This document shows, piece by piece, positions 9,335-12,888 of a DNA stretch of 64,000 nucleotides. Location: contig OZ025785.1 in the NCBI GenBank assembly GCA_964019425.1, forward strand, positions 434,001 to 498,000, written 5' to 3'. A model generated the notes under the pieces. The model saw only the letters and a program-made list of their open reading frames with translations, did no database searches and was not told the origin of the DNA. Position 1 is the stretch's first letter, and each line of letters starts with the position of its first letter. The position numbers and the translations under genes were made by a program. This stretch comes from Flectonema sp. DT1601. Its lineage: Eukaryota.

Positions 9335-10054
9335 ATGCAGCGGAACATGTCGGATGTTAATATGCGTCCTGAAGTGGAGGTGAATATGCGTCCTGAAGCA
9401 GAAGTGAATATGCGTCCTCAGGCGGATTATAATTTTCGTACCGAACACCAAACCTGTCCACCAATTCCTGGTGGTTACCATCACTTGAATAGTTCAGACG
9501 TTAGTAATGTTCCTTATCATATGGCAGCACAGAGTGAAGTCTTGATGCAGATGGCGGCGATGATGAGGGAACAGAGTAGGCCGAAAGGTAGTGATAAAGA
9601 CGATATAGCTCTTGAACCAAACTTCGCGACAGATGCGAAGCAATTTATTCAATGGCGTGGGATTATTGGTAATCCTGCCGATCCGTATGCGACGGATAAT
9701 TTAATTCGCGATCTTTACGCGAAGTATGTGTCGGCTGCTACCGCTAGCTCGCAGTTTCAGTCTAGTCAGCTGAACAGAGATTGGGAGATGCTGAAGGACG
9801 GTATAATCTCGGTACGGGATTTTGTGTTCTTCGGGTACTATAGGTGGTACGACTTGCCGGCCTACACTCGAAACTTGAACAGAATGTATCGCAGATTGAT
9901 ATATTCGTCCAATGAGTTCAAGAAGGAACACAACACTCCTAGGAGTGGCAAAGGCGGTCAGGTACAGAGGTTCACAGCTTACAAGGGGGGCTACAATTGG
10001 AGTGGAAAAGGAGCGAAGTCGATGGGAAACGTGAAAGGGGCTGGCTCCAAGTGA
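9335..10054 (+). CDS. Gag-like ORF1 with three N-terminal VNMRPxxx repeats
   Basis: 239-aa ORF just upstream of YR and RT. TTTTAG acceptor-like site just 5' of the ATG. Confidence 0.75.
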   Translation: MQRNMSDVNMRPEVEVNMRPEAEVNMRPQADYNFRTEHQTCPPIPGGYHHLNSSDVSNVPYHMAAQSEVLMQMAAMMREQSRPKGSDKDDIALEPNFATDAKQFIQWRGIIGNPADPYATDNLIRDLYAKYVSAATASSQFQSSQLNRDWEMLKDGIISVRDFVFFGYYRWYDLPAYTRNLNRMYRRLIYSSNEFKKEHNTPRSGKGGQVQRFTAYKGGYNWSGKGAKSMGNVKGAGSK

Positions 10055-12888
10055 AGGGTAGCCGGCCCCGCGGAGTTTGCGGGTTACCAGCTAAGCAGAG
10101 GGTTACCCGTGTCGGGAAGTCCGCCGACGTCGTTTGCCGAAGGCGTATCAGCAAACGGGAGGCCGACCGAGTCGTTTTTAAGGCGCCGGTCTTTCGAAAT
10201 GTCATCTCATCGGTCGCAGACGCCGCTCATCGGTATAGATGGAGACCATATGCGGATGTGGGAGAGTTGCGTGGCTGCCGGAATGACTGCCGAGTCGGAG
10301 ACGTTGTTCGGGAAAATGATGCGCCACCAGGTCGAAGGAAGAGGAGCGAAGGAAAAATCCTCGAAAAGAAATGGAGAGGACAAGGTGGATCTGTCGTCCG
10401 CGTTGGATCAATTGGAGCGGATCGTGGGTTCAATGTGGGCGGCATCAACTCTGAAGGGGAGGCAACATCTTTGGGCGCGGTTGATTTATTGGGTGGATCA
10501 AAACCAGATCCCACTAAATCAGGATACAGTGGCGTTGTTTGTTGTAGCGACAAGTGTAACAAAGCAGGGCATGCTGGAATATGCAAAGGCTCTGTCAGGC
10601 GCATTGAAGAGGATGGGGCTCCCAAACGAGACGGTGAAGCAGTTGGCGGCCGCATTGCGAGCAGACGGAGCGGCTATTCCCATCAATCAGGCAAAGCCGA
10701 TTCCGAGAGAGTTGCTGATATCTTGGGCGATGCATCAGCGGGAGGACTTGAAGCTGGCATCCTTGATTGCGTGGAAGACGGCTTCAAGGTGGGGCGAAGT
10801 CTGCATATTGAGCAGCGACAATTTCGTTCTGGTGAGTCCAGACGAGGTGATTGTCGACTGGTTCACAGCGCCGAAGGGAACGTCCAGCAACCCGTTTCGG
10901 ACTTCAAGATGGGTGGTGATTTCAGGCGTATTGACAGCCGAGATCGCGGGCCTTCTAGGAAGAAGATCAAGGTTCGGAAGGTTGACGACGACTTCGACTG
11001 CGGAGCTCGACAGGTTGTGGAAGGGGCAAATGAGAATGGCGGAGTACTCGGCGCATTCAATAAAGCGCGGGGCCATTTCCCATCTAGTGGCTTTGATGGC
11101 AAGAGGAGTGGTGATCGACGGGGTGGTGCTCGGTCGGGTGACGAAGCACGCATCGGGAGGCGAAGGATTTCCGAGCACCTCGGTCAGGTATGGTGGGAAT
11201 CCGGTCGACATGGCGAGGGCGCTGTTGACAGCTTCGGTAACAGAATTGTTATGAACAATAAGCATAACATCTGCAGGAGACCGAAAAAGTCGAAGTTACC
11301 ATCGACTAATGAAGAATGGGAGTCCCCGCTGCATGTAGATGATGTACCGCCTTTGGATCTGAATAAGGTGAGAGCAATGATGTCGACGGCTAGGAGGAAA
11401 AGATTCGATGATGTAGTGAGCTTGACCTTCGAGCCGAAGTTGAAGAAGGGGAGACAGACCGCAAACAGCAGGAAACAGATGTCGTCGATTAGGAAGGATT
11501 TTGCGGAGAAGTTGGTAGCTTGTGGAGTTGCATCGCCTTCAGATCGTTCAGGACCGATGGAGAATATTCCGTTTACTGTGGTGGAGAGCAAGAAGACTGG
11601 TTTGAGGCAGAGGTTCATCTTGTGGACTAAACAGGCGAATGATGAGCTGATAAGGTTGGGTTACAAGGCTGATGTTCCTTTAGAACATATATCTCGTTAT
11701 TTGGATTCTGTGCGAGGGGAAGTTGCGAGTTGTCGCGACTTTCGCACAGGGTTTTATCAGATCGAGATTCCTGAGAAGTCTCGAAGATTTTTCAGATTTC
11801 AGGCTGATGGTGGGGAATGGTACGAATTGACTCGGCTTCCGATGGGTCATTCGTGTGCACCGGAGCTGATGCATTCGGTGGCTGCGACTCTGGCTGGTGA
11901 TGTTCTTTATGCGAGACCTGATTTGGTGGTGAAGGACGTTCGAATTGACTCATGGATAGATAATATCCGGTATGTTGGTAGATATGCTACAGTAAGGGAG
12001 AGAACAAGACAATTAGATGAGAGGGCTGAATCTGTGAACGCAACATGGAAACCAGCTGATTCCGTTGATTGTGGGGAGCAATATGACTTTCTGGGTGTTG
12101 AGTTCAACCATCAACAGAAGAAAGTGCAAATCTCGTCTCGTTTAAGACAGAAGTTGGAGCAGACGGAATTGCGAAGTATGACAGCAGGTGGTTTGGAGAC
12201 GCTGATGGGTCGATTGATGCATGCAAGTGCGGTGTCAGCTACATCTCCTGGTCTCTTTTGGTTCGCCATTAAATATTCGAGAAGAATCATAAATCGAATA
12301 AATGGTGGGAGTTTAGTCCCAGATGATGGGATTTCGATACCAAGTTCGATTAGGAAAGAGTTGCAACGTTGGATTCATGCTGCGATGCAGCGTCGGACGA
12401 TGCCTGCTAAAGCTGTTAAGAACAGGACACTAACAGTGTTCGTTGATGCATCGCTTGATGGTTGGGGAGGCGTGATTGTTGATGAGAATACTAAAGCATT
12501 AAGTATTGTTGGGGAGAGATGGGTGCGGGAGAGAGGTCTTCACATCAACGTGTTGGAGGCAGCGGCGCTGAGGAACACGCTTAGAGCTTTGAACGATCGA
12601 AGGTTGGAGGGTTGGCACCTTAGGATTAGGGTTGACAACACTTCTGTGATGGGGGCCGTTCGCAAGAGGCAATGTGTCAGGAATGAGATTCTGAATAGAC
12701 ACATTGTGGAGGCGATTGAATGGTTGGCAAGACAGAAGTGTTCATTTGATGTCCGTTACATTGCGTCAAAGAAAAACCCAGCGGACGGTCCATCTCGGGT
12801 GTCTCCTATTCAGATGAAGTCGATGAAGCATCGAGTTGGTGTGGTACAATCAGTAGTGGAGTATCTGCGAGCAGAATCCATTTCTTAA
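9997..12888 (+). CDS. RT-RNase H ORF with a ~410-codon N-terminal extension overlapping the whole YR ORF (-1 frame relative to gag); RT region begins after ATG 11251
   Basis: RT motifs DFRTGFYQI, LPMGHSCAP, WIDNI, FLG. DIRS-type RNase H motifs VDAS..GWG, HINVLE, VDN, NPADGPSR. Confidence 0.9.
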   Translation: MEWKRSEVDGKRERGWLQVKGSRPRGVCGLPAKQRVTRVGKSADVVCRRRISKREADRVVFKAPVFRNVISSVADAAHRYRWRPYADVGELRGCRNDCRVGDVVRENDAPPGRRKRSEGKILEKKWRGQGGSVVRVGSIGADRGFNVGGINSEGEATSLGAVDLLGGSKPDPTKSGYSGVVCCSDKCNKAGHAGICKGSVRRIEEDGAPKRDGEAVGGRIASRRSGYSHQSGKADSERVADILGDASAGGLEAGILDCVEDGFKVGRSLHIEQRQFRSGESRRGDCRLVHSAEGNVQQPVSDFKMGGDFRRIDSRDRGPSRKKIKVRKVDDDFDCGARQVVEGANENGGVLGAFNKARGHFPSSGFDGKRSGDRRGGARSGDEARIGRRRISEHLGQVWWESGRHGEGAVDSFGNRIVMNNKHNICRRPKKSKLPSTNEEWESPLHVDDVPPLDLNKVRAMMSTARRKRFDDVVSLTFEPKLKKGRQTANSRKQMSSIRKDFAEKLVACGVASPSDRSGPMENIPFTVVESKKTGLRQRFILWTKQANDELIRLGYKADVPLEHISRYLDSVRGEVASCRDFRTGFYQIEIPEKSRRFFRFQADGGEWYELTRLPMGHSCAPELMHSVAATLAGDVLYARPDLVVKDVRIDSWIDNIRYVGRYATVRERTRQLDERAESVNATWKPADSVDCGEQYDFLGVEFNHQQKKVQISSRLRQKLEQTELRSMTAGGLETLMGRLMHASAVSATSPGLFWFAIKYSRRIINRINGGSLVPDDGISIPSSIRKELQRWIHAAMQRRTMPAKAVKNRTLTVFVDASLDGWGGVIVDENTKALSIVGERWVRERGLHINVLEAAALRNTLRALNDRRLEGWHLRIRVDNTSVMGAVRKRQCVRNEILNRHIVEAIEWLARQKCSFDVRYIASKKNPADGPSRVSPIQMKSMKHRVGVVQSVVEYLRAESIS
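10055..11254 (+). CDS. Tyrosine recombinase, same frame as gag and separated from it only by TGA (first ATG at 10199)
   Basis: Catalytic set visible: KTAS-R, AP-K-G, A-H-SIK-R-G, TK-H, VR-Y. Confidence 0.88.
   Translation, partial: RVAGPAEFAGYQLSRGLPVSGSPPTSFAEGVSANGRPTESFLRRRSFEMSSHRSQTPLIGIDGDHMRMWESCVAAGMTAESETLFGKMMRHQVEGRGAKEKSSKRNGEDKVDLSSALDQLERIVGSMWAASTLKGRQHLWARLIYWVDQNQIPLNQDTVALFVVATSVTKQGMLEYAKALSGALKRMGLPNETVKQLAAALRADGAAIPINQAKPIPRELLISWAMHQREDLKLASLIAWKTASRWGEVCILSSDNFVLVSPDEVIVDWFTAPKGTSSNPFRTSRWVVISGVLTAEIAGLLGRRSRFGRLTTTSTAELDRLWKGQMRMAEYSAHSIKRGAISHLVALMARGVVIDGVVLGRVTKHASGGEGFPSTSVRYGGNPVDMARALLTASVTELL

What the first reader, a model, noticed from the sequence alone, without database searches (positions are those of the whole stretch)
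10020..10110. One gag junction predicted to feed two enzymes: -1 frameshift into RT and UGA readthrough into the recombinase
Seen: gag reads ..ATG GGA AAC GTG AAA GGG GCT GGC TCC AAG TGA. G_GGA_AAC (10024-10030) is a correctly phased X_XXY_YYZ slippery heptamer. After a 6-nt spacer comes a 10-bp stem, GGGGCUGGCU (10037-10046) pairing with AGCCGGCCCC (10060-10069), with the gag UGA (10052-10054) in its loop. The -1 frame is the RT-RNase H ORF, open to 12888. The 0 frame continues past the single UGA with no stop into the tyrosine recombinase. An alternative, mutually exclusive fold (GGUAGCC 10057-10063 with GGUUACC 10082-10088 or 10101-10107) can form 3' of the stop. Established: G_GGA_AAC plus a 5-9-nt spacer plus a stem is a classic retroviral -1 frameshift signal. 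Inference: one ~50-nt cassette sets the Gag : Gag-RT : Gag-YR ratio. I know of no such double-recoding switch described for VIPER/TATE/DIRS elements.
Basis: partly seen in the sequence, partly recalled or inferred. Interest (0 to 1): 0.9.

Follow-up and report, generated by a model that had tools for sequence, protein, structure and literature searches.

The report
One gag junction, two recoded enzymes
In a family of jumping genes from single-celled flagellates, including the Chagas parasite, the end of the gag gene keeps a slippery site, a hairpin and a UGA stop across very distant relatives, so ribosomes likely either stop, slip back one base into the reverse transcriptase, or read through the stop into the recombinase: a predicted three-way branch for which I found no published description.

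Summary
The window holds a 5'-truncated VIPER-type retrotransposon whose closest named relatives are in Diplonema. Its junction has a phased G_GGA_AAC, a 6-nt spacer and a 10-bp stem enclosing the gag UGA; the recombinase is in frame and RT in the -1 frame. The junction recurs in 24 of 27 related loci that have upstream DNA. By eye it is also present in 5 of 5 published VIPER junctions (T. cruzi, Crithidia, Bodo). Across 25 junctions: 20 have a canonical heptamer in phase and none out of phase (background 2%); 24 end gag with TGA; 14 read TGA-CT. The -1 frame has no stop over the recombinase in 22 of 23 elements, yet its protein diverges fast and has no conserved AUG. The -1 frameshift into RT is strongly supported (about 0.9). 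UGA readthrough into the recombinase is likely (about 0.7), because a downstream AUG is always available. There are no expression data. Ten literature searches found no description; three key papers were unavailable. The scan had no earlier finding of it.

The parts
9314..10054 (+). 3' part of the gag-like ORF (first ATG 9329); about the first 195 codons of full-length gag are missing in this copy
   Evidence: ORF 9266-10054; 96% identical to residues 196-439 of P0096; P0096, P0097 and P0099 end in the same 14 residues
10024..10030 (+). Slippery heptamer G_GGA_AAC, phased for a -1 shift from gag
   Evidence: phased canonical heptamer 15-60 nt before the stop in 20 of 25 junctions, 0 of 25 in either other phase
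10031..10036 (+). 6-nt spacer
10037..10069 (+). Stem-loop (arms 10037-10046 and 10060-10069) enclosing the gag stop; predicted frameshift stimulator
   Evidence: z -3.70; a stem starting 0-6 nt after the heptamer encloses the stop in 24 of 25 predicted folds; survives a shuffle that keeps the G-rich and C-rich halves apart
10052..10054 (+). gag UGA, the single stop between gag and the recombinase; predicted readthrough site (context UGA AGG here)
   Evidence: TGA in 24 of 25 junctions against 20 of 34 other ORF stops of the same elements
10055..11254 (+). Tyrosine recombinase ORF in the gag frame: 48-codon AUG-free linker, first ATG 10199, catalytic-type residues R197, K226, H286, K289/R290, H317, Y331 counted from 10199
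9943..11250 (+). Stop-free -1 frame running over the whole recombinase gene; poorly conserved spacer that shifted ribosomes would cross
11251..12888 (+). RT-RNase H core, continuous with the -1 frame; its ATG at 11251 is not conserved

Best explanation
The end of gag in this VIPER-type retrotransposon carries a phased slippery heptamer, a stem and a single UGA that are conserved across the family, and they likely work as a three-way translational branch: most ribosomes would stop at UGA (Gag), some would slip -1 at the heptamer and cross a long open spacer into RT-RNase H (Gag-RT), and some would decode the UGA and continue into the recombinase (Gag-YR). SHOWN: the anatomy, the frames, and the conservation of heptamer phase, stop identity, enclosing stem and both open frames. 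INFERRED from established -1 frameshift rules, probability about 0.9: tRNA-Gly and tRNA-Asn re-pair from GGA AAC to GGG AAA when the stem stalls the ribosome, giving ..MGN-RERGWLQ.. INFERRED, about 0.7: ribosomes that stay in frame melt the stem, reach the UGA, and a fraction insert an amino acid, giving ..GSK-X-RVAG.. The readthrough signal appears to be the stop and its next bases, not a 3' structure. The two events would be sequential and independent, so the ratio would be set by stem strength and stop leakiness. With the 439-aa gag of P0096 the products would be about 440, 1,380 and 840 aa (arithmetic).
For: Frameshift: (1) A canonical heptamer in phase 15-60 nt before the stop in 20 of 25 junctions, 0 of 25 in each other phase, against 23 of 1,175 control windows; 12 of 16 after collapsing relatives at 50% recombinase identity. 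(2) The heptamers differ (GGGAAAC 10, GGGTTTT 6, GGATTTT 3, AAAAAAC 2, AAAAAAA 1, none 3), so the RNA pattern is kept, not a dipeptide. (3) The -1 frame has 6 stops in 8,883 codons over the recombinase, all in L023, against 433 in the +1 frame and 250 in 7,875 codons upstream in gag. (4) That frame's protein is only 26-44% identical where recombinase and RT cores are 57-87% identical, and it has no conserved AUG; P0032, 77% identical in RT, has Thr where the window has Met 11251. (5) Junction folds: mean z -1.90, 11 of 25 below -2, against 8 of 115 controls; 22 of 25 stay negative under a half-wise shuffle. Readthrough: (6) TGA in 24 of 25 against 20 of 34 other ORF stops (p 9e-4; 15 of 16 against 13 of 23, p 0.012). 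TGA-CT in 14 of 25 against 1 of 34 (6 of 16 against 0 of 23, p 0.002). UGACUA and UGACGG, the type II readthrough motifs, occur in L015, L017, L018, L019 and in L010. (7) No 0-frame stop in 963 codons between the UGA and the first AUG, where 37-43 are expected. (8) Read by eye in the supplement of PMC6681497, 5 of 5 distinct VIPER junctions (B. saltans, three C. fasciculata, T. cruzi) have a phased heptamer 28-49 nt before a TGA that is in frame with the recombinase. T. cruzi has the same 6-nt spacer and a 10-bp stem that differs from the window's by two double-sided changes and one G-U to A-U change.
Against: No RNA, ribosome or peptide data were examined. All 23 recombinase frames have an in-frame AUG before the conserved core. 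In T. cruzi the AUG directly follows the UGA, and in L017 and L029 it is one codon later, so initiation or re-initiation there is possible. T. cruzi also has an annotated ORF3 start upstream of the gag stop. The window's own context is UGA-AGG, not a textbook leaky one; 8 of 25 junctions and all 5 published ones have A at +4. No conserved structure lies 3' of the stop. That gag and recombinase share a frame follows automatically from the frameshift plus the fixed YR/RT overlap, so it is not separate evidence. In one clade TGACT also pairs in a hairpin, so CT may be kept for structure. L001, L004 and L029 lack a canonical heptamer; L024 has TAG and no enclosing stem; L028 has the phases swapped; L012 and L020 show no gag junction. 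The 15-60 nt search window was chosen after seeing the junctions. The empty-linker count is partly built in, because the junction was defined as the first stop upstream of the recombinase.
Confidence: 0.65

Rival explanations
1. RT is made by the -1 frameshift, but the recombinase is made separately from a downstream AUG, by spliced-leader trans-splicing of a sub-genomic RNA or by termination-reinitiation after the gag UGA.
For: An AUG precedes the recombinase core in 23 of 23 elements. UGA-AUG is adjacent in T. cruzi and one codon apart in L017 and L029. The region after the stop is pyrimidine-rich in some loci (0.70-0.77 in L008, L021, L029). Trans-splicing is the normal route to downstream ORFs in euglenozoans (established). 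Tca2 is a caution: its gag-UGA-pol junction alone gave no readthrough in yeast and held a minor promoter (PMC2194720, abstract).
Against: It does not explain the 963 stop-free linker codons (37-43 stops expected) or the bias to TGA and TGA-CT. The first AUG lies 1 to 101 codons from the stop, and the near-stop AUG of L017 is ACG in its 90%-identical relative L015. The window's linker is purine-rich (pyrimidines 0.46).
Confidence: 0.24
2. No recoding: three separately initiated ORFs, with the long overlap a by-product of the known YR/RT overlap in this group.
For: This is the published annotation: three ORFs with alternative ORF3 starts (PMC6681497 supplement; PMC5146736 passage). An AUG overlaps the recombinase stop in 3 of 17 elements, the window among them.
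Against: It cannot account for the phased heptamers (20/0/0 of 25), for the stem placed at spacer distance, or for a stop-free but fast-diverging -1 frame that opens just upstream of the heptamer (3 nt before it in L011). L013 has no AUG in the RT frame up to 60 codons past the recombinase stop.
Confidence: 0.06
3. UGA is a sense codon here (selenocysteine or a variant host code), so Gag-YR is an ordinary fusion.
For: Kinetoplastids have selenoproteins, and Blastocrithidia reads UGA as Trp (PMC12153298 passages).
Against: The same elements end recombinase and RT ORFs with TGA, as do 3 of 12 long host ORFs in the window. There is only one internal TGA per element. L024 has TAG. No Rfam family, SECIS included, reached threshold in the window element or in 20 loci.
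Confidence: 0.03
4. The UGA is a chance nonsense mutation in a decayed gag-YR fusion gene.
For: The window copy is truncated, and two B. saltans TATE copies are single-ORF (PMC6681497 section 7).
Against: A stop sits at the same place relative to a heptamer and stem in 25 junctions, among lineages whose RT branches often exceed one change per site, and in three near-identical gag proteins.
Confidence: 0.02

Closest known systems
VIPER retrotransposons of kinetoplastids (PMC6681497: abstract, sections 6-7, passages, additional files 3, 10 in part, 11 in part; PMC5146736 and PMC12278014 passages)
   Same: Order gag, YR, RT-RH with YR and RT overlapping; YR motifs of the W-x-T-A-S-R-W and H-S-I-K-R-G-A type; RT groups with a T. 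theileri protein (98/99); the published copies carry the same junction.
   Different: These papers treat the three ORFs as separate; term searches of PMC6681497 and PMC12278014 found no readthrough and no programmed frameshift. The window copy lacks split direct repeats and the 5' part of gag, and its closest named relatives are diplonemid.
Retroviral and LTR-retrotransposon gag-pol -1 frameshift (HIV-1, MMTV, PEG10; PMC5009743 passages)
   Same: Phased X_XXY_YYZ, short spacer and downstream stem, just before the gag stop.
   Different: The shifted ribosome must cross about 400 codons of another enzyme's gene before reaching RT, and the 0 frame beyond the stop encodes a second enzyme. No protease is encoded.
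gag-pol readthrough in MuLV (UAG plus 3' pseudoknot) and Tca2 (UGA); type II UGA-CUA/CGG readthrough of alphaviruses (PMC13517186 passages; PMC2194720 abstract)
   Same: A single in-frame stop between gag and an enzyme; UGA-C contexts in 16 of 25 junctions.
   Different: No conserved stimulator 3' of the stop; the stop lies inside the frameshift stem; readthrough would give the recombinase, not Pol.
TATE (L. braziliensis copy, PMC6681497 additional file 11, read by eye)
   Same: Phased A_AAA_AAC at the end of gag.
   Different: The heptamer is followed at once by UAA and the long ORF2 lies in the -1 frame, so there the shift would feed the YR ORF and no in-frame readthrough branch is seen. One copy only.
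Systems that use both kinds of recoding: giant-virus release factor gene (PMC5009743 passage); alphaviruses, luteoviruses, sireviruses, arterivirus nsp2 -1/-2 (recalled)
   Same: More than one recoding event on one RNA, or three products from one region.
   Different: There the events are in series, at distant sites, or both frameshifts. I found no case of one gag end branching to two different enzymes by frameshift and readthrough 20-60 nt apart.

Membership tests
VIPER retrotransposon | Three ORFs in the order gag-like, YR, RT-RH, with YR and RT-RH overlapping | tested here: met
   definition
VIPER retrotransposon | RT and YR sequence affinity to trypanosomatid VIPER rather than TATE | tested here: met
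   RT 31% identical to T. theileri P0089 and in one clade with it, 98/99. The VIPER label of P0089 and the YR motif match rest on by-eye comparison; no TATE row was in the tree.
VIPER retrotransposon | Split direct repeats A1 ... B1-A2-B2 | tested here: not met
   None in 8700-13700. The copy is 5'-truncated, so this window copy is a non-autonomous remnant; full-length copies were not available as DNA.
TATE retrotransposon | Long ORF2 (about 980 aa in L. braziliensis) lying in the -1 frame after gag | tested here: not met
   Window YR ORF is 399 aa and in frame with gag; TATE
Programmed -1 frameshift signal | Phased X_XXY_YYZ heptamer | tested here: met
Programmed -1 frameshift signal | Stimulatory structure about 5-9 nt downstream, conserved | tested here: met
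   (predicted folds only); T. cruzi covariation by eye
Programmed -1 frameshift signal | Stimulator is a pseudoknot | tested here: inconclusive
   Not found in the window and not general (p 0.32 in 15 collapsed lineages). In one clade a 5-bp second helix pairs in 36 of 40 cells with one double-sided change, not above shuffles (109 of 500).
Programmed -1 frameshift signal | Transframe product detected | not testable with these tools
   no run was listed; no proteomics tool
Programmed stop-codon readthrough | Conserved single stop with an open downstream frame | tested here: met
Programmed stop-codon readthrough | Known leaky context (UGA-CUA/CGG, UAG-CAR-YYA, UAG-G plus pseudoknot) | tested here: inconclusive
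   Not met in the window (UGA-AGG). +4 C in 16 of 25 against 6 of 34 other stops (p 3e-4); exact type II hexamers in 5 of 25.
Programmed stop-codon readthrough | Conserved RNA structure 3' of the stop | tested here: not met
   mean z +0.36 (+1 to +75) and +0.09 (+9 to +108)
Programmed stop-codon readthrough | Readthrough product detected | not testable with these tools
   no expression data available

The most novel reading that the evidence does not exclude
VIPER elements use one RNA cassette as a coupled, tunable switch: the stem that stalls ribosomes at the slip site also holds the UGA, so its folding state would set frameshift and readthrough together and with them the Gag : RT : recombinase ratio. 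The wiring may also be evolutionarily swappable: L028 would read through into RT and shift +1 into the recombinase, and TATE would shift -1 into the recombinase ORF.
Probability: 0.2. Interest if true: 0.92.

Novelty: new variant of a known kind. Interest (0 to 1): 0.8.

Why it matters
Retroelements normally use either a frameshift or a readthrough to make one enzyme polyprotein from gag. Here one gag end appears to branch to two different enzymes by both routes within about 30 bases. It gives a concrete answer to how the overlapping recombinase and RT genes of VIPER elements are expressed, and explains why a frame stays open for 400 codons without conserving its protein. It predicts Gag fusions that would load both enzymes into a particle without a protease. 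The same junction is in T. cruzi and Crithidia VIPER copies described as potentially active, so it can be tested with existing ribosome-profiling and proteomic data and with simple reporters. It also suggests that automatic gene models of these elements are wrong at this junction; several Diplonema models join gag to the recombinase.

Tried and rejected
No whole genome was held, and the window has a single copy. No sequencing run was listed, so no RNA holder was listed either. Viral contigs gave no relative in three scans. An RT-alignment scan of genome contigs could not be run. Pfam and a PDB sequence profile did not recognise the recombinase; the fold search did. Rfam gave nothing at threshold. 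The gag search found only one cluster of near-identical copies. Rejected: the alternative 3' fold as a family feature; a general pseudoknot; AUGA stop-restart at 11251 as the general RT start (3 of 17; absent in the close relatives P0032 and P0035); in-frame gag-YR phase as independent evidence. My recollection that the Cafeteria Ngaro paper mentions frameshifting was wrong. Lorenzi 2006, Poulter and Butler 2015 and Kojima 2020 were not held, and the long VIPER supplement was served with sequences cut, so prior mention there or in Repbase cannot be excluded. Earlier scan notes: nothing relevant.
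Full report
1. Observation. All coordinates are right. Gag ends ATG GGA AAC GTG AAA GGG GCT GGC TCC AAG TGA (stop 10052-10054). G_GGA_AAC (10024-10030) is phased for a -1 shift. After 6 nt a 10-bp stem (one G-U) closes over the stop; the hairpin folds at -24.8 kcal/mol, z -3.70, with 1 of 200 shuffles as good. 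The 0 frame continues for 399 codons and the -1 frame runs 9943-12888. The 0-frame protein has no Pfam hit, but its model (mean pLDDT 84.6) matches Tre/Cre best (E 1.2e-5). The -1 frame protein is RT-RNase H.

2. What the element is. Named homologues of both enzymes are mostly Diplonema papillatum proteins at roughly 40-55% identity, with unnamed assemblies beside them; a diplonemid host is an inference from those names. The RT is 31% identical to a Trypanosoma theileri protein and shares a clade with it (98/99; long branches make the deeper forks unsure, and no TATE row was included). By eye the enzyme motifs match published VIPER, not TATE. The copy is a remnant: a 439-aa gag (P0096) matches only from residue 196, at window 9314, and no split direct repeats are present. 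Three near-identical gag proteins end in the same 14 residues as the window; two others diverge before the junction.

3. Comparative test set. A recombinase alignment found 28 metagenome loci and 2 genome-collection loci. Three end before the junction (L006, L016, L030). Of the other 27, 22 have gag, one stop, the recombinase in frame and an open -1 frame at the junction; L023, one of them, has a later break in the RT frame. L024 and L026 have the junction with a later one-base shift. L012 and L020 show no gag junction, and L028 has other phases. That makes 24 of 27; with the window, 25 junctions, or 16 after collapsing relatives at 50% recombinase identity. Several contigs hold only 24-77 gag codons.

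4. The frameshift half. A canonical heptamer lies in phase 15-60 nt before the stop in 20 of 25 junctions and in 0 of 25 in each other phase; 23 of 1,175 control windows have one; the collapsed set gives 12, 0 and 0 of 16. The interval was chosen, but the contrast is far beyond that choice. Five different heptamers are used, encoding different dipeptides; L001, L004 and L029 have none. Over the recombinase the -1 frame has 6 stops in 8,883 codons, all in L023, against 433 in the +1 frame and 250 in 7,875 upstream gag codons (23 elements, L024 and L026 left out). Among five relatives that frame is 26-44% identical where the recombinase and RT cores are 57-87% identical: open but not conserved, as expected of a spacer that ribosomes must cross. 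No AUG is conserved. One overlaps the recombinase stop in 3 of 17 elements, L013 has none up to 60 codons past it, and P0032 and P0035 lack the window's Met 11251. A predicted stem starting 0-6 nt after the heptamer encloses the stop in 24 of 25 folds; mean z is -1.90 with 11 of 25 below -2, against 8 of 115 control windows (nominal offsets were used for the three loci without a heptamer). With G-rich and C-rich halves shuffled separately, 22 of 25 stay negative (13 of 16 collapsed, p 4e-4). A pseudoknot is at most clade-specific and was not found in the window.

5. The readthrough half. Gag and recombinase sharing a frame is not separate evidence, since it follows from the shift plus the fixed overlap. 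Three things are. First, the stop is TGA in 24 of 25 junctions against 20 of 34 other ORF stops in the same elements (one of these is L023's premature RT stop), or 15 of 16 against 13 of 23, p 0.012; 8 of 12 long host ORFs in the window end in TAA. Second, the next bases are CT in 14 of 25 against 1 of 34 (6 of 16 against 0 of 23); five junctions have the exact type II hexamers UGACUA or UGACGG listed in PMC13517186 (passages). Third, the 963 codons between the UGA and the first AUG hold no stop where 37-43 are expected. That zero is partly built into how the junction was defined; what is not built in is that this first stop is the one with the heptamer and the upstream ORF. Against: every element has an AUG before the recombinase core, T. 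cruzi has it directly after the UGA, the window reads UGA-AGG, L024 has TAG, and nothing 3' of the stop folds better than chance (mean z +0.36, 0 of 25 below -2; from +9, mean +0.09, 3 of 25 below -2).

6. Published VIPERs. I read parts 1, 2 and 4 of 6 of additional file 10 of PMC6681497 by eye. All five distinct junctions seen have a phased heptamer and a TGA in frame with the recombinase: B. saltans G_GGA_AAC at -31; C. fasciculata A_AAA_AAA at -28, A_AAA_AAC at -40 and G_GGA_AAC at -49; T. cruzi A_AAA_AAC at -34 (two copies alike). The first C. fasciculata copy ends gag in G-S-K-stop with the UGA in a stem loop, like the window. T. cruzi has a 6-nt spacer and a 10-bp stem differing from the window's by two double-sided changes and one G-U to A-U change. 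The paper's own table puts T. cruzi ORF1 at 1-1341, ORF2 from 1342 and ORF3 from 1218, which is the -1 frame. The one TATE junction read (part 1 of 4 of file 11) has A_AAA_AAC followed at once by UAA, with ORF2 in the -1 frame. These readings were not run through a program.

7. Mechanism. Ribosomes reach the heptamer with the stem at the entry channel; a fraction would re-pair one base back and translate about 950 more codons to give Gag-RT (inferred, about 0.9). The rest melt the stem and meet the UGA; most would terminate and a fraction would decode it to give Gag-YR (inferred, about 0.7). Both together: 0.65. The main rival is frameshift for RT with separate initiation for the recombinase (0.24). 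Tca2 shows that a gag-UGA junction can mislead reporter tests (PMC2194720, abstract).

8. Prior knowledge. Ten full-text searches listed no paper on recoding in VIPER, TATE or DIRS elements. Term searches found no readthrough and only mutational frameshifts in PMC6681497, neither in PMC12278014, no DIRS or tyrosine recombinase in the held first 300,000 characters of the review PMC5009743, no frameshift in PMC7192593 or PMC8547959, and only remarks on ORF phase in PMC3783388. PMC5146736 notes alternative ORF3 starts. Lorenzi 2006, Poulter and Butler 2015 and Kojima 2020 were not held. Each recoding type is well known; the branch to two enzymes at one gag end is what I could not find. Earlier scan notes held nothing on it.

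9. Verdict. Real, family-wide, and probably a dual-recoding junction; a new variant of known recoding. Interest 0.8, limited by the lack of expression data and by the open alternative for the recombinase.

Noticed in passing
L028 760-960: Phases are swapped: gag ends ACC TGA in frame with the 1,057-codon RT ORF, and the recombinase is in the +1 frame. Either a variant (readthrough to RT, +1 shift at the stop to YR) or a one-base indel.
   Followed up: partly
window 9260-9330: The element begins abruptly at 9314, after an AT-rich, pyrimidine-rich tract ending in AG and just before ATG 9329. It looks like a splice acceptor that could let the truncated copy be expressed; all three frames are intact.
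   Followed up: partly
25 junctions, +4 to +63 after the stop: CAAGT occurs in 14 of 25 (7 of 16 collapsed) against 33 of 367 control windows, in differing frames; absent in the window. In L001 and L003 it can pair with the bases right after the UGA. Noticed by eye, then counted.
   Followed up: partly
L009, L014, L015, L017-L019, L026, L027 junctions: Possible multi-stem pseudoknot with the UGA inside an inner hairpin; the second helix shows one double-sided change.
   Followed up: partly
PMC6681497 additional file 11, L. braziliensis TATE: Phased A_AAA_AAC directly before the gag UAA, with ORF2 in the -1 frame: a candidate -1 frameshift into the YR ORF. The ORF2 N-terminus looks to me like a cysteine protease (recalled motif, untested).
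   Followed up: no
window 314-1729 (-): Orphan gag-like ORF similar to the gag parts of Diplonema models P0073 and P0054 (E about 1e-10), with no recombinase or RT hit beside it.
   Followed up: no
P0068, P0069, P0073, P0076, P0077, P0080, P0088: Diplonema gene models join gag to the recombinase, and some to RT, in one protein, probably by predicted introns over the junction; P0073 and P0077 keep an R-G-N at the gag end.
   Followed up: no
window 5830-8700 (-) and 13585-15297 (-): An intact APE-RT LINE ORF on one side and an ORF with a weak GIY-YIG hit on the other flank the element.
   Followed up: no
window 29200-40338 (+) and 47885-57470 (-): Three tandem genes, two with long leucine-rich-repeat-like tails, and two long Cys/Pro-rich repeat ORFs.
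   Followed up: no
L029, L030: VIPER-like loci sit in contigs of bacterial genome bins, probably eukaryotic contamination.
   Followed up: no
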